Shown here piece by piece: positions 1-50,797 of a DNA stretch of 63,156 bases. Source of the stretch: an uncultured virus (IMG/VR IMGVR_UViG_3300046331_000190) (taxonomy: Duplodnaviria > Heunggongvirae > Uroviricota > Caudoviricetes); the IMG/VR virus record IMGVR_UViG_3300046331_000190; one strand, given 5' to 3'. The position numbers and the translations under genes are program-made. The number at the start of each line of letters is the position of its first letter. Positions within the stretch are counted from its first letter, which is position 1. The notes beneath the pieces are model-generated. The model made no database searches, was not told where the DNA came from, and saw nothing but the letters and a program-made list of their open reading frames with translations.

Positions 1-2048
1 GCTTGTTGTTGTGGAGTTGCAGCTTTTACTGGAGCTTTATACTCCTCATCTGTTACATAACCTTGTGGTATAGTACTTTGTGACTCATCAGGTAACTGAA
101 ACTGCTCGTTAGGATCTATTTCAGTAGGAAAGTAAGGGTTAACGTTTTGTTTTTTCAACTCTTCGTTTTTAAACTGATCCCAACGATATCCAAGTTTAGA
201 ATCAAACATACCTCCAGTTGGTTGTCCATACTGTTTATGTAACTCGTTGATTCTTGCTGCTCTTGCTGGATCTTGCATAATAAACTTTTGTAAAGCAAGA
301 TTATCACCAGAAGGTCCATTGTATCCAATAGATGCAGCATACTGATCCCATGAATTACTTGGAAACTTAGATGCATTCTTTACACCAGAATACTTATCAC
401 CAGGCCAAGATTGGAATCCTTTTACTTCACCACGTTTTTGATAATCAATAAGGCCGCCATATGCCATATTAGATGTAATCTTTTCTTGAACGTAATCTGG
501 TAAAGCTTTGAAGCCTGGGTTATTAATACCACCTTCTTGATACCATGCATTACCTGAGAATGTTGAACCACCACGCTTTTGGTATTCCATAGCTTCTGGT
601 GATTGCTCCATACCTTGAGGCTCTTGCATTCCTTGTAACTGTTCTGCAATCTCTGGAGGTAAAGCCATCATAGCAGCTTGAGGGATACCTTGAGGGAATC
701 CTTTCTTTGCTTCTTGAGCTAACGCTAACTGGGCAAGTTTTAACTTGTTGTTGTTCATCATCATCTCAGCAGTACGTTTCTGATACTGATCTGCATTTGG
801 ATCTGCTAAGATAGCTTTATATTTGTTTATTTCATACTGTTTAGCTAAATCAGCAGGAGTATATCCTTTGCTTGAACCAACAGATTTACCAAACTGAGCT
901 AAAGCTTGACCTTTTAACTTCATGCTTTTTGTATCAGAATAGATGAATGTACCTGGCTGCAAGTTTAACGGAGTACCACCTTGAGAGTGACGCTTACCGC
1001 CAATCTTTGAATGCTCCATCTCACCATCATTATCTAAGTCACCATAGGCAGTTTCACCACGCTCAGCTTCTAGATTAGCCATATCTCTTGGTACAGCTTG
1101 TAATGTATCCTTAACAGCATATGGATCTGGTTGACCCATCTCGTTATCAATAATACGAGAACCAAGGTCTAAACTATGACCATATTGACCACCGTAAGCC
1201 ATCATCTCACCACCTTCTTCTCTACCAATCATATTTTGTGGCATATAGAAAGGACGCTTTGAATCCCAACCATCACCCATCTGATCACCAGGGATTCTGT
1301 TACGAGTCCAGTTTGGTATATTAGTGACTACAGGTGTTTGCTTCTTACCTTTTTTTGCAGGCAAGTTTGGATAGAATACAGGACCTTGGATTATAGATTC
1401 CCAAACAGTTGGAGCATCATCCCAACCATCTCCATAGTTTGCAGCACCAACAAAAGGTTGTGGGATATATCTAATACCGCTTGCAGGAAGAGGTCCTTGA
1501 TCTTCCCAAGAGTTATCAGGTGCTACAGGTAAAGTAGAACGTTTGTTTTTTTTCACTGGTGCTTTACCCCAGCTATCATCATTGTTAGTAGCAGGTGCAA
1601 TATTACCAGTAGCTCCAAAAGGCTGAGGTATATATCTCATACCACTAGCAGGAGAAGGCATTGGCGTATTCCAAGATGGATCTGTCGCTGTTGGTAATGT
1701 AGATCTCTTATTTGTAGATTGAGGAGCTGCTTGTTCTTTTAATAAAGAAGATAAATCTTGTTGCTTTTTAAGCATCTCAAGCATCTGAAGATTTTGCTCT
1801 GCAGTACCTTTATAGTTTTTAATACCAAGGTTCTGAGCTATCTTCTTGCGAGATTGATAATCAGCATTAGCTGCTTGACCATGAGCCGCTAAATAATCAT
1901 AAACAGAAACATTAGTTGCTGCTTTTGGATATGCTGATTCAATACCTGTTGCCTGAGCCAATAACTCTTCTTGAGTAAACATTGGCTGACCACCAGTTTG
2001 ATACTGGTTAGGTTGATTAAGTGTAACTCTTACTTTATACTTCTTCAT
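1..2048 (-). CDS. Putative virion cargo/ejection protein, runs off the window edge (partial). Has a DUF3597-like putative peptidoglycan-binding domain and GG-delimited segments
   Basis: ATG at 2048 (MKKYKVRVTLNQPNQYQTGG...). Absent from the ORF track, presumably because there is no stop in the window. Hand translation gives SVYDYLAAHGQ..YQSRKKIAQNLGIKNYKGTAEQNLQMLEML (DUF3597-like) and NLEAERGE..IGGKRHSQGGTPLNL..FIYSD (resembles crAss-type cargo proteins). Phage promoter motif at 2069-2078. Confidence 0.7.
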   Translation of the reverse strand, partial: MKKYKVRVTLNQPNQYQTGGQPMFTQEELLAQATGIESAYPKAATNVSVYDYLAAHGQAANADYQSRKKIAQNLGIKNYKGTAEQNLQMLEMLKKQQDLSSLLKEQAAPQSTNKRSTLPTATDPSWNTPMPSPASGMRYIPQPFGATGNIAPATNNDDSWGKAPVKKNKRSTLPVAPDNSWEDQGPLPASGIRYIPQPFVGAANYGDGWDDAPTVWESIIQGPVFYPNLPAKKGKKQTPVVTNIPNWTRNRIPGDQMGDGWDSKRPFYMPQNMIGREEGGEMMAYGGQYGHSLDLGSRIIDNEMGQPDPYAVKDTLQAVPRDMANLEAERGETAYGDLDNDGEMEHSKIGGKRHSQGGTPLNLQPGTFIYSDTKSMKLKGQALAQFGKSVGSSKGYTPADLAKQYEINKYKAILADPNADQYQKRTAEMMMNNNKLKLAQLALAQEAKKGFPQGIPQAAMMALPPEIAEQLQGMQEPQGMEQSPEAMEYQKRGGSTFSGNAWYQEGGINNPGFKALPDYVQEKITSNMAYGGLIDYQKRGEVKGFQSWPGDKYSGVKNASKFPSNSWDQYAASIGYNGPSGDNLALQKFIMQDPARAARINELHKQYGQPTGGMFDSKLGYRWDQFKNEELKKQNVNPYFPTEIDPNEQFQLPDESQSTIPQGYVTDEEYKAPVKAATPQQQ

Positions 2049-2115: not shown

Positions 2116-5100
2116 TTAACAGAACTCTACTTTACCACCCATTGCTTTAATCTGCTGTATCTCTTCCATAGTAAGTTCCATCTCACCACCAAACTGTGAT
2201 TTACCAAGTGCTTTCTTATAACTGCTTAGATTCTTGTTAAAGTTTTGACCCCATGTCATTTTATTACCATAGTCTGCTCTTGGTATCTGATTCATTACGG
2301 TCATATCTCCTTTTGCTGCTCTTGAAGCAAAGTCAGGATAGTACCATGCACCTAATGCATAAACACCATAGTTCTTAATATGATCAACAGCAAGTGATCT
2401 AGCAGCTTGATATTCAACCTGTGGATCTTTATCAAAGGCTGCTTTAAACGCATTAAACGTTGGGAAGGCATCATTAAACTGATCTTTCTTGTAAATCTGC
2501 TTAAGAGTACCGTCAGTGATTTGGAATGTACCTGAAGCACTAGCTCTTTTACCACCATCTCCAATAAGTTTAGTACGCATACCAACTTTTGATTGTCCTT
2601 TCTTTGAACCAGATTCTGTACCAGCAATAGCTTCAAGCATCTTATCTGGATCTAATTCTAAACCAGCAACATCAGTAGTAGGTGCTACACTATATGATTC
2701 AGGTGCTGCAGCTTCAGGTATTTTTGTTGCCGGCATATCAAAAGCAGCATAGTTTAAATCTGGAGTAAGATTAGGAACCATTGTTGGTGCCATACCTAAA
2801 GCAACATCAAGACTTGTTAAACCACCATCAGCAAAGAATCCAGGAACACTCATTTGATCTGGTTTATATAAACCATATGAGCTTGGTCCTTGAGAGTAAT
2901 CTCCACGATTCATCATTGAATCATACTGTTGATTCCATGTAGCATTCTGAGAACGTAACATCTGACGGTTTGCTTCTTCTCTTTTTGCTTGTGCATTAAG
3001 ATTAGCTCCACCAATAAATGTGTTAAGTGCAAAGAAAGGATTAAGCATAGGATTTGACTTCTGTTCTTTCTTTTGATTAGTAGTAGCAGTAGCTGTTGTA
3101 TTCTGTTTTAATATATTACTCTTCATCTGACCTGCAATACCTGCACCTTCTTGAGATACTGCATCATATATACCAAATGGATTTGTATCAGCTGGTAATT
3201 GAGCTTGAGCATCAGCTGCTTCTTGAGCTGGATTAAGATTAGGAAAGAATGGGTTTTGTTTACCAACTTGTGCTTTTACTAGACCGCCTTTCTTTTTATA
3301 AGCTAAACGTTGTACCATCTCATTATAAGCAGTACCACCTTGTTGCTTTATAAACTTAGCTTTGAAGTCATTAAATGCATCTGCTACAGAACCAGTAACA
3401 CTATTAAAAGTACTAGCTGCTCTGTCCATAAGACCAGGTTCTCCCATTGCATTAACAACGTTATACTTCGATATACCTGGTAAAGCAATACCATCTTCAG
3501 GATTATCAATAACATAAAATGCAGGATGATCTTTACTAGATGCTGTACCATGATACATCATACCATCACCAAAATAACCAATGTGTTCATGACCAGCATT
3601 ATTACCAGCATACAGCATGCGGTTAGCATAGTCTCTACTATCATTAGCTTCAGCCGTAGTTTTAGCCATCTTACCATCAAAATTATCTTTGCGGTTAAGA
3701 CCAACTAATACACCAGATAGTTGTTTAACTTCTTCTGGAAAAGCATAATTTCTTGGATCATGTAATGGCTTACCTGCATCTAATTCAGTTTGATAACCAG
3801 GAGAAGTGTATAACTCAGGAATATTACCTCTATATCCCCAAGCATTATTTCTGCCAAAGTCATATCCTTTTGCATCGCCAATCTGTCTTGCAATATCAGC
3901 ACATCCTTTTGCGGTACAAACAAACTTAGAACCAGGATACATCTTATTTAGCTCTTCAGCTTTTGCAATACCTTCAGCATCTAATGCGTTATAACCATAC
4001 TCTGATAGATCGATGTATCCTTTCTTTGGTTTAATGACTTGACCAGCTGTCTGATACTTCTGCATTCCACCATACTTCAACTCTGACATCTCTAAGAACC
4101 TCTGTTGGTTGTAAGCTACATCATCACGTCTAAAATCAGACATCATCTGTTTAGCAATCTCAGCACGATTTTGTGGATCTCTTACTTGAGCTAAGATATC
4201 AGCAATACCATTAACCATCTCCCGCTCATTACGTGTCTGACCACCTTCTTTATACCCACGACTTGGTGTAAAAGTATTCACTTGCCCTTGTACGTTTTGA
4301 AAGTTTAAAAACTTATTCAAATCTTGCTTAGGTACTCCATACTTTTGAATAATAACATCGTCCATCTGGTTTGCTATGTTCTTAAAACTTTGACTACCAT
4401 ATAAGTTTTCAAACCCTTTTCCTTTAACAAACCAGTTATCAACAGTAGGTACATCCATCCATTGACCAAATGCTTGCCAGTCACCTGGATTAATTTCTTT
4501 CTTACCACCCCAGGATGTTGACTTATAAAAATACTCTGGGCCATTTACGGTATTAACACCTACAATAGGTCTGCCACCATATGTACCAAAGTATTCAATA
4601 TCATCTTGATGAAGTGGTTTTTTAAAAGCCCCTCGTTGATCAAGAATTGTACCTCGTTCTGTAAGTGCATTAATCACATCATTACTTGATGCACCGTAAT
4701 GAGATATGTTACCAGGAACTGGGATTTTACTAACTGGTACTTGTTTTTGTAGCGTCGTTGCATTTGCAACTCGATCAGCAACGTCCAATACTTTAGCTGC
4801 TTTACCAGTTTTCTTTAATGTTTTAGCTAAAATACCTGCTGTTCCTGCACTAATCAAGTTTACTGGATCAGCAATAGCATTTATTGCAAATGCACCAATA
4901 GGGTTTTTAACACCCAATGCTTCAGATGGATCTTGGTATTTTCCTGTTAAACCTTTTACAACAGCTCTTGCAGGGATAGAAAGTATATCACTTGCAAAAG
5001 ATAAAGCCTTTTTTGCTGAATCAAGAAACGATGCATCTGGATCTATATTAGACTCACCACCTGTTTGCCAAGTAGCTCTAGCAAAAGCTCTGAAGTAAGG

Positions 5101-6246
5101 ATTACCATCTAAGTTCTTTTTATGACGTGCATAGAAAGCTGCTTTACGTTCTGGATCTTTTGGATGCTGGCCTAACTTAGAATCACCAAAGTATTTAACA
5201 GTTCCATCAGGACCAGTTACTTTGTGTGTCTTTCCTTTTCTATCAGAGCTTCTTGACACAGTGTAACCACCACCACCAAACTCAGGCATATATCCACCAA
5301 AGCTCATCTCTGATAATATCTTATGTTGAACATAATCAGGTAATGCTTGGAAACCAGGATTGTTTGTACCACCCTGTCCCATAACTTCTATACCGTATTG
5401 ACCTTTTCTCCAGCCACCACCTTTAGACTTATACCACTTAGCAGCCCAGCCATTAGCATATGCTGAAGGATATACATCATACTTAGCGCGAGCAGCAGAC
5501 TTTGCTCTTGACCATAATGCTGGATTAGTAGGAACATTTCCTCCTTTTGCCATTGTTAAAGCTTCTTGATAGCTTTCAAAATCTGTAGGGTAATCATAGT
5601 TATAATCCATTGTATCTCCACCATATTGTTTTCTTCTATGTTGATAGTTAATCCTTTCACTAGAAGTCTTTGATCTCTTAAACTTTTCACGTTCTGCAGG
5701 TGACAACTCGCTTGCTGTCTTTGGTGTATCAGAACTTACTCTTTTTGAAGGACGACATGCTGGATACCCAGCTCTACTTTCACCTTCTTGTCTACCACAT
5801 GGTTTACCACTCTTAACATCAACCCACTTTTCTGCAAACCATCTATCCAATCCACCATGTTGACCACCACTTTTCATCTTAACAGAACCTCCACACTTAT
5901 GACATGTCATAGGATCAGATCCACCATCAACTGCTTTCCAAGAATGACCACAACTAGAGCAAGTAACAGATCGACTTAATAGTCCACCATTCTGCATCAT
6001 TGGATACTCAGTAACGTTATCAGCATCAGGAAATAGATAGTCTTGATTAGGATACATCATTTGAGCTTGTCCAACATTAGGGACACCTAACACAGGATAA
6101 CTAACAGCATCCATCGTAATGTTATTAGATGGTATAGTAGTTATCTCACCAGGATGTTGCCATTGATTTTTTGGAACCTTTGGCTTACTTGGTTTCTTGT
6201 TTAAATCTTTTGTAATCTGTGATAGTAATGATCTGTTAAAACTCAT
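2116..6246 (-). CDS. 1376-aa multi-domain putative virion cargo polyprotein: Zn ribbon, small basic domains, NlpC/P60-like amidase, C-terminal lysozyme/SLT-like domain
   Basis: CSSC..CHKC; GCADIARQ..NAW..HIGYF..YHG (Cys/His peptidase-like); LEAIAGTESG..SASGTFQITDGT (transglycosylase motifs). About 15 [MYFWLK]xxGG linkers. Lies directly after the muzzle gene, where crAss-like cargo genes occur. Confidence 0.7.
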   Translation of the reverse strand: MSFNRSLLSQITKDLNKKPSKPKVPKNQWQHPGEITTIPSNNITMDAVSYPVLGVPNVGQAQMMYPNQDYLFPDADNVTEYPMMQNGGLLSRSVTCSSCGHSWKAVDGGSDPMTCHKCGGSVKMKSGGQHGGLDRWFAEKWVDVKSGKPCGRQEGESRAGYPACRPSKRVSSDTPKTASELSPAEREKFKRSKTSSERINYQHRRKQYGGDTMDYNYDYPTDFESYQEALTMAKGGNVPTNPALWSRAKSAARAKYDVYPSAYANGWAAKWYKSKGGGWRKGQYGIEVMGQGGTNNPGFQALPDYVQHKILSEMSFGGYMPEFGGGGYTVSRSSDRKGKTHKVTGPDGTVKYFGDSKLGQHPKDPERKAAFYARHKKNLDGNPYFRAFARATWQTGGESNIDPDASFLDSAKKALSFASDILSIPARAVVKGLTGKYQDPSEALGVKNPIGAFAINAIADPVNLISAGTAGILAKTLKKTGKAAKVLDVADRVANATTLQKQVPVSKIPVPGNISHYGASSNDVINALTERGTILDQRGAFKKPLHQDDIEYFGTYGGRPIVGVNTVNGPEYFYKSTSWGGKKEINPGDWQAFGQWMDVPTVDNWFVKGKGFENLYGSQSFKNIANQMDDVIIQKYGVPKQDLNKFLNFQNVQGQVNTFTPSRGYKEGGQTRNEREMVNGIADILAQVRDPQNRAEIAKQMMSDFRRDDVAYNQQRFLEMSELKYGGMQKYQTAGQVIKPKKGYIDLSEYGYNALDAEGIAKAEELNKMYPGSKFVCTAKGCADIARQIGDAKGYDFGRNNAWGYRGNIPELYTSPGYQTELDAGKPLHDPRNYAFPEEVKQLSGVLVGLNRKDNFDGKMAKTTAEANDSRDYANRMLYAGNNAGHEHIGYFGDGMMYHGTASSKDHPAFYVIDNPEDGIALPGISKYNVVNAMGEPGLMDRAASTFNSVTGSVADAFNDFKAKFIKQQGGTAYNEMVQRLAYKKKGGLVKAQVGKQNPFFPNLNPAQEAADAQAQLPADTNPFGIYDAVSQEGAGIAGQMKSNILKQNTTATATTNQKKEQKSNPMLNPFFALNTFIGGANLNAQAKREEANRQMLRSQNATWNQQYDSMMNRGDYSQGPSSYGLYKPDQMSVPGFFADGGLTSLDVALGMAPTMVPNLTPDLNYAAFDMPATKIPEAAAPESYSVAPTTDVAGLELDPDKMLEAIAGTESGSKKGQSKVGMRTKLIGDGGKRASASGTFQITDGTLKQIYKKDQFNDAFPTFNAFKAAFDKDPQVEYQAARSLAVDHIKNYGVYALGAWYYPDFASRAAKGDMTVMNQIPRADYGNKMTWGQNFNKNLSSYKKALGKSQFGGEMELTMEEIQQIKAMGGKVEFC

Positions 6247-9200
6247 CGTTGACTGATTTGTAGCTTAGTGCTTATTAGCTTAAATAACATTTTGGTTGAA
6301 CCACTCTTTATCTTACGTAAAAATACACGGTTTGCATAGTGTCTAAACTTCTTACGCTCAATCTCTGACTTCTTATAGTCAACATACTTTGGATTAAGAG
6401 CTCTTGTATATCCGTTTGACGATACATTAAACATTGGAACCTCGTTACCAACGAACTCACCTCTGTTCTTTGTAATATCCCAGAACTGGTTAAAGCGATA
6501 CTTGTTCTCTTCTTTTGAGTAGTTGATCTTTATACTATCAGATTGAACCATTGGATATAGTAACAAGCTTATAGGATCATTCTTTCTCTTTAAGTTAAGG
6601 TCTAAGTAACCTGATACTTGTTCTGAGTTATATACTAAAGCTCTATCAAAGTTATCATCAAGAAGATGGAACTTATCATTACCATCGTTCAGATACTTAA
6701 AGCACTCAAGGATGTATTCAACGTTCTTTACAGTAGCTACATTAACACCTGTTGATGCAACATACTCAACTTCAAATGGATAATCAACACCATAGAAATT
6801 ACAGTATAAGTCTGTTCTACTGTTATGTCTCCATATACCTTTATCTTGTACAGTCAAGAATGAACTTCTTGCTGGAATAATAAAGTTAGGATGCCAGTCA
6901 TGAACAGATAAAAACTGTTCGTTCTTAACATCATAACTCATTGTCCAAGATGCATTCTCAAAATGTAATGGATCACCAAGAGTTACAGCAGTCTTTGTTT
7001 GCTTAACAACACCGTTATCAATAAACTCTTCTCCTAGCGTATAGAAACCATTAATGGTATCATACTTAAGATTCTTGTTTATTGGCTTGTAATCCTTTTT
7101 AGTAATATATAAGATCTCATTAGTATTATCATAGGACATGTTACAGCCAACACCAATAAGAGGATTATCGTAGTGAGCAAAGTTTGGAAAAGCTTTGAGC
7201 AACTGAGAAGGAAGATACTTAGCAAACCACCACTTGTTACCGTTTCTTGAGATTTCTTTATACTGTCCTGCATACTGGAATATTTTACCTTGTTCCTGAG
7301 ATACCCAGAATACACCAGCTGGTATACCAACAATAGCATACTTACTCTGACATGAACCATATTGGTACTCGTCATCAGTATTCATAATGTTTCTCATTGG
7401 TTGGTTAAACAAACCGCCATCTCCAACAGTAATCTTAATACCTGCATCTGTTTGTAGTGAGTCAACACCTTGAATCATTATTGGTGATTCATTCTCTAAC
7501 ATAATTAAAGCTCCTGTATGACCAACAGACTTTAAAGCTGTTACTCTACCACTCATATCAATGTAGTTGTTAGGTAAGAAACGCACCCAGTTATCTTGCA
7601 TTTGCTCTTGCTCTTGTGGAAGAGAATACATGATTCTATTTGGTGAATAACTATAACATTGCTCAGCTACTTTTGGATCATAGCTACGAGACTGCATTGA
7701 TCCCCAACTAATATAGTTGTTGTATAACTTAGATACACTAAGAGAGTAATCATACTTGTAGTAGTTACCCTTCTTCATAATATCTGATCTAAACATTGAT
7801 GTAAGATCAGTATACTTATCTGGATCGTAGTGACGCTTATCAGGAGTCTCATCCCAATCACGATATGCTAAGTTTACTTCTGACTCTACAAAGAAGTCTC
7901 TAACCCCATTACAGAATAAGTAGAAGTGTCCTCTGTTAACATAAGAATCAACCTCATGTCTATCGTCAAGGTGTGAAAACGCTGTTGTACCATCTGTTAC
8001 TAAACGTTTTGCATCTGTATTCTCTAACCAATATCTTGGGTAAGCAACAGACATTCTTGCACGATAGTCATATAACAACTCATCTTGTTGATCGTATAAC
8101 CAATCGTGGAAGAATAAGAACGGATTTTTTTCTGTGTAACGACCAATATAGATATCTCCTCCAAATAACACATCAGTTGAATAAACCTTTGTTTTATCTG
8201 GTTGAGTTTGATACACACATGTATACACAGGAACTTGCTTTATAGATTCTAGCTGACCATACTGAGATGGAAACGCTGATTTAATGGCACCGTAGTATCC
8301 TGAGATCGCAGATTTAACCGTTGTATTAAGATCAGTCTGTAACTGAGTCTTTGTGTTTCTACTAGTATCAACTATTTTTGGAGCATCGAACTCACGAGTA
8401 GTATTAACTAATACATACTTACCTCTGTGCAAGTTATTTATTCTATACTCATTGTAAGACTGCAAGTTGTCTCCAATATAAAAGGCATCAGCTACTTTTC
8501 TACGAGCATTATCAACACCTGTGTTAATACTGTAGTTGCTATAGAATCCATGTGAGTCATACTGTGTTGCAAACTGACGCTTTGGTATCATGCTTGCAAC
8601 AACGTTTATTACCTTTTCACTATACTGATCTTTTAATAACTTAGCAGCATAGATTAAAGCAACAACGTTTGCTGTATAGATCGCAAGGTTTGCAACATAA
8701 GCAGCAATTGATATTGCACTTGTTGCAGCACCTGTAGCACCAAGAGCATCTGAAGCAGCGGCAGGAGGACCTGGTGTAGGAACACCACCGCCTAATGAGA
8801 ACTCAAACGGCTCACCTTCCGTGCCACCAAACTTAATAGTTTTCGCCGCATTTGTAAGGAGATTAGTTGCAATAAGAGTACTAAGTAATGCATCAATAGT
8901 TCCTTTTGCAGCTTCACTTAGAATCTTAAACTGTGGATGCTTGTATACATACTTGAAAGATCCTTCAGATGTACCATATACTTCACTGTAAACCTTAAGT
9001 TCAGATGCTGAAAGATATGGTTTAGAGAATGATGTGTCTGGACTATGGAAAGAGAACATGTCTTTTCTATACTCCTTAAGACCATCTTCTAAACGATTGT
9101 TTCTTGCACCACGATCAATAAAGCTCTTGTTTGACGTTAAGAAAAGATCTTCTCTTAAGTCATTGTATGGATAGTTCTGATACAAACCCTTTACTCCTGG

Positions 9201-10841
9201 TTGATCAGGCATATCATGTTGACGCATGTTGTTTAATAAACCTTTTGCAACAACAGTCTTATTACCTTCTCTTGAACCTCTAAGAATCTCATATCCGATA
9301 ATATCAGTTAATGGATTACCAGCATTATCTAATGGTACAGAAATATTCTCAAACTTAACCCCAAGAACACGTATCTTATCACCACCTTGTGATTGATGAT
9401 ATACTTGCTCAGCTAATGAGTTATCAGGAAACTTATGGTGTCTAATCTTTTCTCCACATAAGTTACCCCAGATGTCTGGTTTGTTATCTGGATAAATCTC
9501 TGTAGACTCCCAAAAGCCCATCTCTCCTTCAGCAATAAGAACACCACCATCTGCACGTTGTGTATTAGGAACAGATAAAACCTCAGCTGTGTTTTTTACT
9601 TTCCATACTTCTGGTGACTCATCTCCTTCAATAACACTTGCATCTGCAGAAAATAAGTAGTTACGCTCTTCAACACGTGGAGCTCTACCAGGAATATGGT
9701 ATGATGCAGACTTATCACCTGTATTGTATATCCATCTAATAAAGAAAGCATACTGCTCATCTCTCATGTACCCTGTATTGTTACCACCTTTTAAGTAGTA
9801 GTTTGCAGGATACTCAACACTTGCCCATTTAGTTTGGATCTTATTAGCTAATGGTTGATAGTTAAAGTCAAACTTGCTTTGTATACCAACTCTAACAAGA
9901 TAGTTGTTTAATCTAAATGTTGCATCAGATGCCTCAATTGCTGGAGTCACTAATGGGATAAGTTCAAGTGGTACTGTAATAAGATCTGGCTCAACAGAAT
10001 CAATGTAAACACGGTTCTGATTAACAGAGTATATACCTAATCTTTTGGCCGTAGTTTGATTATTTACTACTGAGATGAGTACTAACTCAAACTCATCAAA
10101 ATCTTGGTCTGTATTCGAGATATCAACAGTTAAACTACCTCCTTCTCCATCATGTTCAAACAAACCTTGTACTTCAGATACAACAAGATAGTCAGTAACA
10201 CGAATACTATTGATTGAATAAGCAATCGCTACTTGATAAGAACCGTTACGTAATGTACCAGCAGCTTTACCTTTCTCAATATTAACACAAGGTATGGTCA
10301 AGATCTGAGCAAGACGCATCTGCTCAACATCAAGAACTCCTGTTGACTGTTCAATGTAACACTCACCTTGCTTTACTTTCTTTATAACATAAGGGACGTT
10401 ATCAAGATCTAATACACGAGATGGGTTACGGCGAGCATCATCAAAGTATACTTTATATCCACAATCAAATCCTTTACGAGATGCTCCTGTAATAAGATTG
10501 TTCTTATGAAAGTTTAATCCACGATCATTAACAACAGTCTTGTATGTTCCAAGGTTAGCATCAAAAATACCTATCTCAGAATCAATGTTATCTGTTGTAA
10601 ATAAAGCCCACGTACCATCTGTAATAGGTATAGAACCAATTAACGAGTAGGGTAAATCAACTGTGTGTAAGTTAGCAGGCTCATTACCAAGAACACCAAC
10701 TTGCCCATCATGTGAGTTATTGACAGCGTTTCGTGCATGCAACCATACGCCTTCACCAACGAAGGTTTCGTTAAGGTCTTTCATCATACCTTTTGAGAAG
10801 GTATTGATTACACTAGCGTTATCTTTTGGTGATGTTGCCAT
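6243..10841 (-). CDS. Tail muzzle/stabilization protein (crAss-like Tstab, P22 gp10-like)
   Basis: 1532 aa; NTFSKGMMKDL..ARNAVN N-terminus; GYMRDEQYAFFIRW motif; C-terminal WTMSY..FLSVHDWHP; position after ring proteins. Confidence 0.8.
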   Translation of the reverse strand: MATSPKDNASVINTFSKGMMKDLNETFVGEGVWLHARNAVNNSHDGQVGVLGNEPANLHTVDLPYSLIGSIPITDGTWALFTTDNIDSEIGIFDANLGTYKTVVNDRGLNFHKNNLITGASRKGFDCGYKVYFDDARRNPSRVLDLDNVPYVIKKVKQGECYIEQSTGVLDVEQMRLAQILTIPCVNIEKGKAAGTLRNGSYQVAIAYSINSIRVTDYLVVSEVQGLFEHDGEGGSLTVDISNTDQDFDEFELVLISVVNNQTTAKRLGIYSVNQNRVYIDSVEPDLITVPLELIPLVTPAIEASDATFRLNNYLVRVGIQSKFDFNYQPLANKIQTKWASVEYPANYYLKGGNNTGYMRDEQYAFFIRWIYNTGDKSASYHIPGRAPRVEERNYLFSADASVIEGDESPEVWKVKNTAEVLSVPNTQRADGGVLIAEGEMGFWESTEIYPDNKPDIWGNLCGEKIRHHKFPDNSLAEQVYHQSQGGDKIRVLGVKFENISVPLDNAGNPLTDIIGYEILRGSREGNKTVVAKGLLNNMRQHDMPDQPGVKGLYQNYPYNDLREDLFLTSNKSFIDRGARNNRLEDGLKEYRKDMFSFHSPDTSFSKPYLSASELKVYSEVYGTSEGSFKYVYKHPQFKILSEAAKGTIDALLSTLIATNLLTNAAKTIKFGGTEGEPFEFSLGGGVPTPGPPAAASDALGATGAATSAISIAAYVANLAIYTANVVALIYAAKLLKDQYSEKVINVVASMIPKRQFATQYDSHGFYSNYSINTGVDNARRKVADAFYIGDNLQSYNEYRINNLHRGKYVLVNTTREFDAPKIVDTSRNTKTQLQTDLNTTVKSAISGYYGAIKSAFPSQYGQLESIKQVPVYTCVYQTQPDKTKVYSTDVLFGGDIYIGRYTEKNPFLFFHDWLYDQQDELLYDYRARMSVAYPRYWLENTDAKRLVTDGTTAFSHLDDRHEVDSYVNRGHFYLFCNGVRDFFVESEVNLAYRDWDETPDKRHYDPDKYTDLTSMFRSDIMKKGNYYKYDYSLSVSKLYNNYISWGSMQSRSYDPKVAEQCYSYSPNRIMYSLPQEQEQMQDNWVRFLPNNYIDMSGRVTALKSVGHTGALIMLENESPIMIQGVDSLQTDAGIKITVGDGGLFNQPMRNIMNTDDEYQYGSCQSKYAIVGIPAGVFWVSQEQGKIFQYAGQYKEISRNGNKWWFAKYLPSQLLKAFPNFAHYDNPLIGVGCNMSYDNTNEILYITKKDYKPINKNLKYDTINGFYTLGEEFIDNGVVKQTKTAVTLGDPLHFENASWTMSYDVKNEQFLSVHDWHPNFIIPARSSFLTVQDKGIWRHNSRTDLYCNFYGVDYPFEVEYVASTGVNVATVKNVEYILECFKYLNDGNDKFHLLDDNFDRALVYNSEQVSGYLDLNLKRKNDPISLLLYPMVQSDSIKINYSKEENKYRFNQFWDITKNRGEFVGNEVPMFNVSSNGYTRALNPKYVDYKKSEIERKKFRHYANRVFLRKIKSGSTKMLFKLISTKLQISQR

Positions 10842-36301: not shown

Positions 36302-36712
36302 CTATTTTAAGAACAGTAACTTATACTTAGCACTATTAAGGCTAGACTTAATCATATCTAAGTCGTTTACTATTTCACTGTAAGGCATCATACCTTGTAA
36401 AGATGTAACCATCTGGTATACATCTCTAATATAAGATAACGCTTCTTGTACACTATTCAAAGGACGCGGTGCATTATCTTCATATGTTAACAACTTCTCA
36501 GCAGCTCCTTGGAATCCTTCAGCTAGTGCATCAGCATGTCCAGGTAAAGCATCATATAACTCATTAAGAGCTTTGTGTGCTGAGAATGAACCTAAGTCTT
36601 TTACTTTTAGGTGTAGTTTATGGAAACTAGTTGCAGCATTCATTAACTCGCTAACGCAAGCAGCTGTCTTTGATTCTAAAGACCCATTTGGTCTTTGTAG
36701 TTTTTGTACCAT
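36302..36712 (-). CDS. Ferritin/Dps-like four-helix protein (DUF5856-like)
   Basis: HKLHL..SFSAHKALNELYDAL..D.LAE..QG..EIVNDLD....KYKLLFL. Confidence 0.7.
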   Translation of the reverse strand: MVQKLQRPNGSLESKTAACVSELMNAATSFHKLHLKVKDLGSFSAHKALNELYDALPGHADALAEGFQGAAEKLLTYEDNAPRPLNSVQEALSYIRDVYQMVTSLQGMMPYSEIVNDLDMIKSSLNSAKYKLLFLK

Positions 36713-49775: not shown

Positions 49776-50288
49776 TTATCCGTCATACGCAAGATTCTGG
49801 CCCCCGCGTACAGAACTCTGCTGTTCTTCTTGTAAATCTCTATAAGTTGACTTAAAGCTTTGTCTGATTTGGTCAAACTTTGCAGCAGCATTTATCACAG
49901 CAGTAATGTTACCATCTCTACCATGCTCAATATCTGTCACCTCCATGTATTTTGCCAATCGATCAAGCATTGACTTCATACCCATATAGGCTCTAAAAGT
50001 TGGCGTCTGATACATTTGCTCACATCTTTTCTTTGCGTGCAGTATCATGTCATCATCAAGAGAAAAATCAGCTCCAACCTCTTTTAAGATCATTGCTTCT
50101 TTGTCCTTTTCTGGAACATCAAAGAACGGATTAAGATCTGGATTAGGACAAGTTGAGTAAAACAAATATGTATAGATCTTTATTGCTTCATCCCCATACT
50201 CATCCATGATGTTCTTCAAGAACTCAAGTGTGTAACAATGCTCGGAAGGGATTACCTTACCGTTCTGTACATCAAATAATCTGACCAT
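49776..50288 (-). CDS. Conserved hypothetical protein
   Basis: 170-aa helical ORF ending in VRGG; possibly small-terminase-like, unverified. Confidence 0.55.
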   Translation of the reverse strand: MVRLFDVQNGKVIPSEHCYTLEFLKNIMDEYGDEAIKIYTYLFYSTCPNPDLNPFFDVPEKDKEAMILKEVGADFSLDDDMILHAKKRCEQMYQTPTFRAYMGMKSMLDRLAKYMEVTDIEHGRDGNITAVINAAAKFDQIRQSFKSTYRDLQEEQQSSVRGGQNLAYDG

Positions 50289-50797
50289 TAATCCCAGTGT
50301 TTATTGTATTCTTCGTAGTAGAAAGTAAGGTCTTGCGTTTTATCATCGTAATACTCACCAACTACATCACTCTTAAACTTACTATGCACGTTTTCAAACA
50401 AGGCAGTAGTAATAATTCTACTATCAGATGGAATGTAATCCTTCATTAGATCACAAATCCAAGTGTAGTTACCTCCTCTAATAATACCAGCTTCTGCAAG
50501 TACGTAATTATCGTAGGTTTTTGCAGAGATTGTTAATGTCCTTTTTAACTGAGACATGAACCAATCAGCTTGTTGATCAGGAAACGGAACATCAACCATC
50601 ATTAGATCACACATCTCACCATCTTTACTTAGCTTATGAGCCATATGCATGGCCACTGTGGCACTATAATCAGGTGAGACCATAAGAACTACCGTGTTGC
50701 TTGGATTAAGCTCAGGAAAGCGAACTTTGAGCATGGTTAACATTTCTTCTAAAACGTCTCCTTCTCTTTGTCTAGTAACTAATAATGGTTCTCTCAC
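50288..50797 (-). CDS. Phosphoribosyltransferase-fold protein
   Basis: YVLAEAGIIRGGNY resembles a degenerate PRPP loop; typical PRTase ending TALF..SD..G......F.YE. Confidence 0.55.
   Translation of the reverse strand: MREPLLVTRQREGDVLEEMLTMLKVRFPELNPSNTVVLMVSPDYSATVAMHMAHKLSKDGEMCDLMMVDVPFPDQQADWFMSQLKRTLTISAKTYDNYVLAEAGIIRGGNYTWICDLMKDYIPSDSRIITTALFENVHSKFKSDVVGEYYDDKTQDLTFYYEEYNKHWD

What the first reader, a model, noticed from the sequence alone, without database searches (positions are those of the whole stretch)
2116..6246. GG-punctuated payload polyprotein: a string of unrelated small domains separated by [MYFWLK]xxGG
Seen: about 15 linkers (MQNGG, MKSGG, KQYGG, MAKGG, MGQGG, MSFGG, FGGGG, WQTGG, YKEGG, LKYGG, KQQGG, KKKGG, FADGG, SQFGG, plus variants YQTAG and AQVG) fall at apparent domain boundaries. 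The modules are a Zn ribbon, two Trp/Lys-rich mini-domains, a basic K.H..FGD..AFYARH domain, an unknown ~270-aa domain, a helical module, an NlpC/P60-like amidase and an SLT-like muramidase. Known: adenain cleaves (M/L/I)xGG-X and ASFV pS273R cleaves GG-X in viral structural polyproteins; crAss-like phages package large cargo proteins. Inference: a capsid-packaged polyprotein is matured at GG sites into many injected effectors. No obvious protease gene lies in this window.
Basis: partly seen in the sequence, partly recalled or inferred. Interest (0 to 1): 0.85.

Follow-up and report, generated by a model that had tools for sequence, protein, structure and literature searches.

The report
Gly-Gly seams in phage cargo polyprotein
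A crAss-like phage builds a large protein that it probably packs into its particle from swappable mini-modules joined by one short peptide ending in Gly-Gly; other phages put a known head-protease cut site at the same joint, so the peptide is most likely a processing signal, but cutting has not been shown.

Summary
Observation confirmed: a 1376-aa ORF (minus strand), just downstream of a crassvirus muzzle gene, carries all listed motifs. In 94 relatives [MYFW]xxGG occurs 555 times against 96 shuffled; 179 of 256 well-supported module breakpoints lie within 5 aa of GG (41 expected). Near-identical strains gain or lose modules exactly at the motif. Refined consensus: [MYFWK]-[AQKE]-x-(G)-G. For cleavage: in 41 of 52 other phage proteins sharing one module the same joint ends in Glu, and 38 read [I/L]xE, the T4 gp21 site. 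Also, my re-analysis of published crAss001 band spectra finds no full-length gp45, which carries the motif. Against: the cryo-EM model of gp45 starts inside a motif and appears to run through it, motif-free gp46 is also missing from the gel, and no clan CE protease was found. The only candidate protease is a zincin outside the window. Verdict: T4-like processing/targeting seam, cleavage about 0.55, uncut docking tag about 0.33. The adenain analogy and 'many effectors' are overstated. The scan noted this motif before in eight other crAss-like genomes.

The parts
2116..6246 (-). 1376-aa modular cargo-position protein (first gene after muzzle)
   Evidence: 100% identical copy in G003
5983..6246 (-). 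N-terminal module aa 1-88 ending in seam MQNGG; found in 30 of 64 loci
5863..5982 (-). Zn-ribbon module aa 89-128 ending MKSGG; 13 of 64 loci; absent from L002/P0251/P0252
5617..5862 (-). Basic module aa 129-210 (C-terminal half of DUF5872) ending KQYGG; stand-alone gene in T7-like P-SCSP2
5539..5616 (-). Acidic spacer aa 211-236 ending MAKGG
5368..5538 (-). Basic module aa 237-293 (N-terminal half of DUF5872), with the variant KGQYG then MGQGG; preceded by [I/L]xE in other phages
5272..5367 (-). 25-aa module aa 294-318 ending MSFGG (a copy also lies in the next gene) and 7-aa spacer to FGGGG
5056..5271 (-). Basic K.H..FGD module aa 326-397 ending WQTGG (weak DUF5754); 16 of 64 loci, moves position between relatives
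4240..5055 (-). Unknown 272-aa module aa 398-669 ending YKEGG; cleanly deleted (P0257, P0258) or replaced (P0252, P0253) at its two seams in near-identical strains
4039..4239 (-). Helical module aa 670-727 ending LKYGG, followed by variant seam YQTAG
3334..4038 (-). NlpC/P60/CHAP-type papain-fold module aa 737-971 (conserved C782, H888, H899) ending KQQGG; 5 of 64 loci
   Evidence: best Z 5.0, rmsd 4.2, 110 aligned
3259..3333 (-). Seam cluster aa 972-996 (KKKGG, KAQVG) at the point where relatives split the gene in two
2821..3258 (-). Q/N/A-rich module aa 997-1142 ending FADGG
2185..2820 (-). Module aa 1143-1354 ending SQFGG; lysozyme-like motif by eye only, not confirmed
2119..2184 (-). Conserved acidic C-terminal tag (E.ELT.EEI...GG.VEF); its GG is part of the tag, not a seam
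   Evidence: termini list
3..2048 (-). Next gene: cargo protein 1 (gp45)-like, cut by the window edge (961 aa in G003); basic N-terminal leader K.RV then YQTGG; 4 [MYFW]xxGG motifs in the window part
699..1202 (-). Conserved MAYGGQ seam and CARG1-like portal-binding domain of the next gene (invariant E327, E329, E332, H354), with its two halves apparently in reverse order relative to gp45
   Evidence: (7qog_M Z 5.7, rmsd 4.2, 94 aligned)
6243..10841 (-). Crassvirus muzzle protein (context; motif not enriched)

Best explanation
The gene encodes a virion cargo polyprotein of a crAss-like phage. The seam peptide [MYFWK]-[AQKE]-x-(G)-G is this lineage's counterpart of the T4 [L/I]xE signal. Proposed mechanism: (1) the chain is made in one piece and recruited into the prohead, probably tethered to the portal through the neighbouring C1 protein (inferred from crAss001). 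(2) A virion protease cuts at or beside the seams, freeing small basic head proteins, a peptidoglycan hydrolase and other modules for storage and ejection (inferred, not shown). (3) Because any module flanked by seams is still packaged and released correctly, modules are swapped freely at the seams (swapping shown; the reason is inferred). The best protease candidate is the zincin HExxH domain of the 2829-aa RNAP-associated cargo protein outside the window. If a zincin acts, the cut could fall before the hydrophobic residue rather than after GG.
For: Module exchange at seams. Information sits on the N-terminal side of GG: P5 1.8 bit, P4 1.2 bit, P1' 0.6 bit; Gly codons match background, so selection is on the peptide. 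The module at aa 237-293 is preceded by Glu at one fixed position in 41 of 52 distinct proteins, 38 of them [I/L]xE by my reading; one is a 67-aa protein whose leader resembles a T4 capsid-targeting sequence. gp21 cuts after L/I-X-E (PMC9026906 passage). Named Kyanoviridae S-BM3 and P-TIM68 show the same; T7-like P-SCSP2 encodes the modules as separate genes between scaffold and capsid. Where relatives split the gene, the stand-alone N-terminus maps to the residue after GG. crAss001 gp45 has 8 such motifs by my reading. Its two resolved pieces, 214-245 in the tail and 425-552 on the portal, 420 A apart (PMC10172136), each match one seam-bounded segment (the second also includes 4 seam residues). 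Fingerprinting the 13 published band peak lists assigns 12 bands clearly or plausibly (portal, gp22/23/25/26, gp47/49/50 among them) but finds gp45 at decoy level in every band, although it has 24 tryptic peptides in range. A zincin HExxH domain is present in G003, G004 and G005, matching the gp65 zincin noted in bioRxiv 2020.03.07.982082.
Against: 7QOG chain M is modelled from residue 425 (PMC10172136), i.e. from inside the motif at 423-428, with 126 of 128 residues built, so a cut right after that GG is unlikely in mature crAss001. gp46, which has no motif, is also missing from the gel fingerprints, the portal band is weak (6 peptides) and only 13 bands were cut, so absence of gp45 is soft evidence. 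No peptidase family reached E 0.01 in Pfam scans of 50 window proteins or 71 G004 proteins. The zincin hits are weak (best E 0.009). crAss001 MCP is intact from residue 8 and gp47/49/50 run full length, so there is no general head proteolysis. Degenerate seams (YQTAG, KAQVG, YQKRG) keep only the last Gly. Some seams are clustered 4-9 aa apart, which suits multivalent binding as well as cutting. The lineage of the 41 Glu-seam loci was not checked, and 27 of 80 loci were dropped because my anchor pattern did not match.
Confidence: 0.55

Rival explanations
1. The seam is an uncut, repeated docking or targeting peptide, like the targeting half of the T4 CTS without processing. It binds the prohead interior, portal, tail tunnel or a chaperone so that an intact chain is packed and threaded out through the tail module by module.
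For: Motif apparently intact in the 7QOG model. Strong conservation of MAYGGQ at a fixed, never-swapped position before the C1 domain. Clustered and degenerate copies (26% of spacings are 15 aa or less). No convincing protease. Bayfield et al. model gp45 as a continuous chain. Acidic C-terminal and basic N-terminal tags appear at gene borders and vanish where genes are fused, which suggests the chains need to stay linked.
Against: Does not explain why other phages use exactly the gp21 cut consensus at the same joint while T7-like phages keep the modules as separate proteins, nor the missing 90-kDa gp45 band.
Confidence: 0.33
2. The seam is mainly a recombination joint or flexible linker: a short shared sequence that lets modules be exchanged, with no specific protein partner.
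For: Breakpoints coincide with it; GG is a common flexible linker.
Against: Gly codon use at motifs equals background (GGT 0.73/0.53 vs 0.71/0.54 at non-motif GG), so no DNA word is conserved beyond the peptide. A hydrophobic P5 and small/polar P4 are kept. The motif is conserved at sites that are never swapped.
Confidence: 0.07
3. Adenain/pS273R-like clan CE protease cutting GG|X, or a double-glycine C39-type protease inside the protein.
For: Di-glycine consensus. The papain-fold module at aa 737-971 has C39 peptidases among its tied fold matches (6mpz Z 4.3, 3b79 Z 4.5).
Against: No C5/C48/C39/C57 hit. The hydrophobic residue is at P5 and the first Gly varies. The papain-fold module is in only 5 of 64 loci and its top matches are NlpC/P60 cell-wall enzymes.
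Confidence: 0.05

Closest known systems
T4 internal and core proteins processed by prohead protease gp21 (L/I-X-E; capsid targeting sequence), and SPN3US gp245 (AxE)
   Same: A short peptide code on head-packaged proteins; the very same modules are joined by [I/L]xE in Kyanoviridae proteins (PMC9026906 and PMC10052503, passages).
   Different: Different consensus; repeated inside one long chain; no gp21-type protease found; crAss001 MCP is not processed.
Cargo protein 1 (gp45) of Bacteroides phage crAss001 (PF25725, PDB 7QOG)
   Same: Same gene neighbourhood after the muzzle; gp45 carries the same motifs and seam-bounded modules; the next gene in the window has a CARG1-like domain.
   Different: Here the cargo-1 region is spread over two or three genes with far more modules. 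The window protein itself has no CARG1 domain. The paper's text has no mention of cleavage, protease or proteolysis (0 hits).
Polyvalent proteins of phages and conjugative elements (Iyer et al. 2017, PMC5512222)
   Same: Mosaic multi-domain proteins packaged in heads, with lysozyme/peptidase modules and zincin MPTase domains proposed to release domains (passages).
   Different: No conserved junction code appears in the passages read ('glycine' 0 hits). The modules here are mostly tiny basic domains, and the zincin is in another gene.
Adenovirus adenain and ASFV pS273R polyprotein processing (recalled, not checked here)
   Same: Di-glycine-centred motif in a virion polyprotein.
   Different: Hydrophobic residue at P5, first Gly variable, no clan CE enzyme found.
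Lambda tape measure protein gpH
   Same: FATGG (733) and YATGG (778) flank a conserved element; gpH is cut near its C-terminus by an unknown mechanism at an unknown site (PMC12617516).
   Different: A cut after G737 gives 12.2 kDa, the paper says about 14 kDa; profile comparison with the CARG1-like domain is not significant (probability about 1%). A lead only.

Membership tests
Crassvirus cargo-region protein | Encoded between muzzle and C2/RNAP genes of a crAss-like phage | tested here: met
   PF25731 muzzle, ring proteins and PF23898 capsid in the window; order muzzle - this gene - C1 - C2 in relatives
Crassvirus cargo-region protein | Present in the virion | not testable with these tools
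   Uncultured phage; inferred from position and from gp45 in crAss001 (PMC10172136)
Cargo protein 1 (PF25725) | Contains the portal-binding CARG1 domain | tested here: not met
   No PF25725 hit in the 1376-aa protein; the CARG1-like domain lies in the next gene
Prohead-protease-processed head proteins (T4 gp21 type) | Short consensus at module junctions | tested here: met
   positional equivalence with [I/L]xE
Prohead-protease-processed head proteins (T4 gp21 type) | A gp21/HK97-type prohead protease in the genome | tested here: inconclusive
   No such Pfam hit among 50 window and 71 G004 proteins; many conserved genes remain unannotated and ORFs under 90 aa were not scanned
Prohead-protease-processed head proteins (T4 gp21 type) | Cleavage observed in virions | tested here: inconclusive
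   gp45 absent from published bands but so is gp46; 7QOG model starts inside a motif
Adenain/pS273R (clan CE) polyprotein system | Clan CE cysteine protease encoded by the virus | tested here: inconclusive
   None found by Pfam; remote members could be missed
Adenain/pS273R (clan CE) polyprotein system | (M/L/I)xGG consensus with hydrophobic P4 (recalled) | tested here: not met
   Hydrophobic residue is five positions before the end of GG; P4 is A/Q/K/E
Polyvalent proteins | Many unrelated domains in one mosaic polypeptide | tested here: met
Polyvalent proteins | Embedded zincin MPTase or LPD domains in the same protein | tested here: not met
   No HExxH and no LPD Pfam hit in this protein; a zincin lies in a separate cargo gene
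NlpC/P60 / CHAP (module aa 737-971) | Papain-like fold with Cys-His-His/polar triad | tested here: met
   Conserved C782, H888, H899 in at least 93% of 30 sequences; most of the top 46 fold matches are papain-like, best Z 5.0 (modelled on homolog P0256, low Z)
SLT/lysozyme (module aa 1143-1354) | Lysozyme fold with catalytic Glu | tested here: inconclusive
   No Pfam or PHROG hit; model unreliable there

The most novel reading that the evidence does not exclude
Crassvirales use an undescribed, order-wide maturation code, [MYFWK]-[AQKE]-x-(G)-G, read by a virion protease (the RNAP-linked zincin, or the His/Glu-bearing portal-bound CARG1 domain itself). The code turns cargo polyproteins into separate injected proteins without touching the capsid protein. 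crAss001 gp45 would then sit in the virion as fragments (tail piece and portal piece), not as one chain threaded through the portal. The same code may extend to tape measure proteins and mark the still-unmapped cut in lambda gpH.
Probability: 0.3. Interest if true: 0.9.

Novelty: new variant of a known kind. Interest (0 to 1): 0.68.

Why it matters
Crassviruses dominate gut viromes and are common in water, and how their several megadaltons of cargo are packed and ejected is open. A defined seam code gives (i) an objective way to split thousands of unannotated cargo proteins into modules, (ii) a direct test on a cultured phage, crAss001, with existing mass-spectrometry data, and (iii) a different reading of the published structure, in which gp45 pieces 420 A apart need not be connected. 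Either outcome, cut site or uncut docking tag, would be a new packaging rule parallel to the T4 capsid targeting sequence.

Tried and rejected
Only G004 was scanned broadly with Pfam (71 proteins outside the part syntenic with the window); G005 only for HExxH and one domain. PDB sequence searches of the window protein and the C1-like protein gave nothing relevant. Idea that the CARG1-like domain is the protease: confident model (pLDDT 85), but fold searches gave only 7QOG (Z 5.7, tied with unrelated helical hairpins) and no protease; left open. Idea that the lambda gpH FATGG element is homologous to it: hhalign probability about 1%, hmmsearch not significant; even the two C1 arrangements match each other at only 3%, so the test is weak. 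The lambda scan of viral contigs returned 80 identical copies and added nothing. A DNA-level recombination word was rejected on codon use. No GG-cut gp45 fragments can be seen in the published bands: predicted sizes are 1.5-29 kDa and only 15 and 35 kDa bands were cut there. A complex prediction for the acidic C-terminal tag with the basic N-terminal leader of the next protein never ran, so that pairing is untested. Literature searches returned no description of this motif in phage cargo; the library covers open-access PMC and bioRxiv only.
Full report
Context. The window is a crAss-like phage: capsid PF23898, muzzle PF25731, ring proteins, portal and terminase. The finding is a 1376-aa ORF on the minus strand at 2116-6246, directly after the muzzle gene. 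In crAss001 this position holds cargo protein gp45. No whole genome is held; IMG/VR record G003 has an identical copy and G004 and G005 are complete relatives.

Observation. All listed motifs are present and exceed shuffles. Because the residue class was chosen post hoc, I tested it on relatives. From 75 loci found through the neighbouring gene I took 127 proteins at this position and dereplicated them to 94. [MYFW]xxGG occurs 555 times against 96 in shuffles; 187 against 49 in 56 C1-like proteins; and not above chance in C2-like or muzzle proteins.

Modules change at the seams. All-against-all local alignments gave 550 internal breakpoints, 302 within 5 aa of a GG (null 88). Of 256 seen with two or more partners, 179 were (41 expected), and GG was the top of 400 dipeptides. 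Fifty of the 256 lie more than 8 aa from any GG; several of these end in variant seams such as KAQKG or FAQQG. Strains 92-96% identical in one module delete the 272-aa module cleanly from WQTGG to YKEGG or replace it with unrelated modules, and gain or lose the Zn ribbon the same way. The logo from 234 distinct breakpoint GG sites gives P5 M39/Y17/K11/W7/F6 (percent), P4 A/Q/K/E and little preference after GG; Gly codons equal background. The variants (YQTAG, KAQVG, KGQYG) align if only the last Gly is fixed, which gives [MYFWK]-[AQKE]-x-(G)-G (my inference).

What the seam corresponds to elsewhere. Two basic modules occur in unrelated phages. In Kyanoviridae S-BM3 and P-TIM68, where the gene lies between or beside the terminase genes, and in Synechococcus phage Sf-CH8, the modules are chained by Glu-ended linkers. 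In T7-like P-SCSP2 they are separate small genes between scaffold and capsid. A scan of viral contigs with one module returned 595 relatives, of which the best 80 were kept. My anchor pattern failed on 27 and one was a duplicate. Of the remaining 52, 41 have Glu four residues before the module core (38 [I/L]xE, 2 FxE, 1 MxE, counted by eye), 2 have GG, 4 start the protein and 5 are other. I did not check the lineage of these 41. T4 gp21 cuts after L/I-X-E, and the 10-residue CTS combines targeting and processing (PMC9026906, passages); SPN3US gp245 cuts after AxE (PMC10052503, passages). A known cut site at the same joint of the same module is the strongest argument that the Gly seam is a processing signal. 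It is an argument by analogy, and the CTS shows that such a peptide can target without being cut.

Evidence from the cultured relative. crAss001 gp45 carries the motif eight times by my reading, with seam-bounded modules. Bayfield et al. (PMC10172136; passages; peer-review file passages; supplementary file 1, figures and Extended Data tables not seen) resolved residues 214-245 in the tail and 425-552 on the portal, assumed a continuous chain, and never mention cleavage. The four MS peptides named in the text do not span a motif, but the full coverage figure was not visible to me. Against cleavage after GG: chain 7qog_M begins at residue 425 with 126 residues built, so it includes AFGG and very probably the bond after it. 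A cut upstream of the motif would be compatible. I re-analysed the MALDI peak lists of the 13 virion bands in Shkoporov et al. (PMC6235969; section 7 read whole, passages, supplementary file 8 parts 70-74 and 173; gel image not seen). At 70 ppm against 33 crAss001 proteins, bands resolve to gp44, gp47/50, gp49/44, portal gp20, gp26/22, gp22/25, gp25, gp23, MCP, gp36 and (one peak) gp29; band 10 is uninformative. gp45 scores 0-2 matches, at decoy level, in all 13, including every band holding 77-97 kDa proteins, although it has 24 peptides in range and the same copy number (12) as the portal. Caveats: gp46 (no motif) is also unseen, the portal band is weak and contaminated, and my contaminant list is recalled. 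MCP is intact from residue 8 and the RNAP subunits are full length, so any processing is cargo-specific.

Protease. No peptidase family was found among 50 window proteins or 71 proteins of G004. A HExxH zincin-like domain lies in the 2829-aa cargo protein of G003 (outside the window), in its G004 ortholog and in a 1928-aa protein of G005, with weak Pfam support (best E 0.009). This fits the gp65 zincin proposed to cleave the RNAP polyprotein (bioRxiv 10.1101/2020.03.07.982082, passages) and the MPTases of polyvalent proteins (PMC5512222, passages). The next gene's conserved domain has invariant Glu and His residues, folds confidently and resembles the gp45 portal-bound domain, but matches no protease fold. 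The papain-fold module within the protein matches NlpC/P60 enzymes best, with C39 double-glycine peptidases tied at low Z; it is in only 5 of 64 loci, so it cannot be the general processing enzyme.

A wider lead. Lambda gpH and many tape measure proteins carry F/Y-A-x-G-G on both sides of a conserved element; 1225 phage records match it. gpH is cut near there at an unknown site by an unknown enzyme (PMC12617516, passages). The size fit is imperfect (12.2 vs about 14 kDa) and homology to the crAss domain was not detected. I keep this only in the novel case.

Verdict. Shown: the motif, its restriction to the first cargo genes, its position at module seams, selection on the peptide, and its positional equivalence to [I/L]xE. 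Inferred: virion location, cleavage (about 0.55 against about 0.33 for an uncut docking tag) and the identity of the protease. Nine literature searches found no description of the motif. Earlier notes of this scan report it in eight other crAss-like genomes with split verdicts; one had already pointed to the T4-like equivalence, which I tested here independently. It works like the T4 head-protein code; it is not shown to belong to that system or to the adenain system.

Noticed in passing
window 2119-2184 and 1989-2048: An acidic C-terminal tag on this protein and a basic K.R(V/I) leader on the next recur at gene borders across relatives and are missing where two genes are fused (e.g. window aa 972-996 against L004/L006), suggesting head-to-tail docking of cargo chains. 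The complex prediction did not run.
   Followed up: partly
window 699-1103 against L032/L036/L037 and crAss001 gp45: The CARG1-like domain occurs in two arrangements: E.E.GE before H..GG here, the reverse in gp45 and in L032/L036/L037; possibly a circular permutation.
   Followed up: partly
L118:2541-2855 (Roseobacter phage CRP-2 gp68): A small basic protein made of repeated M/Y-x-x-G-G motifs in a non-crAss marine phage, next to homologs of the same modules: the code may extend beyond Crassvirales.
   Followed up: no
L201 (Arthrobacter phage Zucker tape measure protein): An M23-like peptidase domain (by eye) begins right after a YAKGG motif, the same seam-then-enzyme layout.
   Followed up: no
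L037, L036, L059, L063, L112 cargo proteins: A second recurring terminal tag, WL(D/N)KY, at N- or C-termini beside the GG motif.
   Followed up: no
window 50288-50797: A 169-aa gene (phrog_29004) present in the window and G005 but not listed at that position in G004.
   Followed up: no
window 36302-36712: Ferritin/Dps-like protein (DUF5856) inside the virion gene block.
   Followed up: no
L014:9150-10326 (G004): FkbM methyltransferase and DXD glycosyltransferase beside the lysis genes.
   Followed up: no
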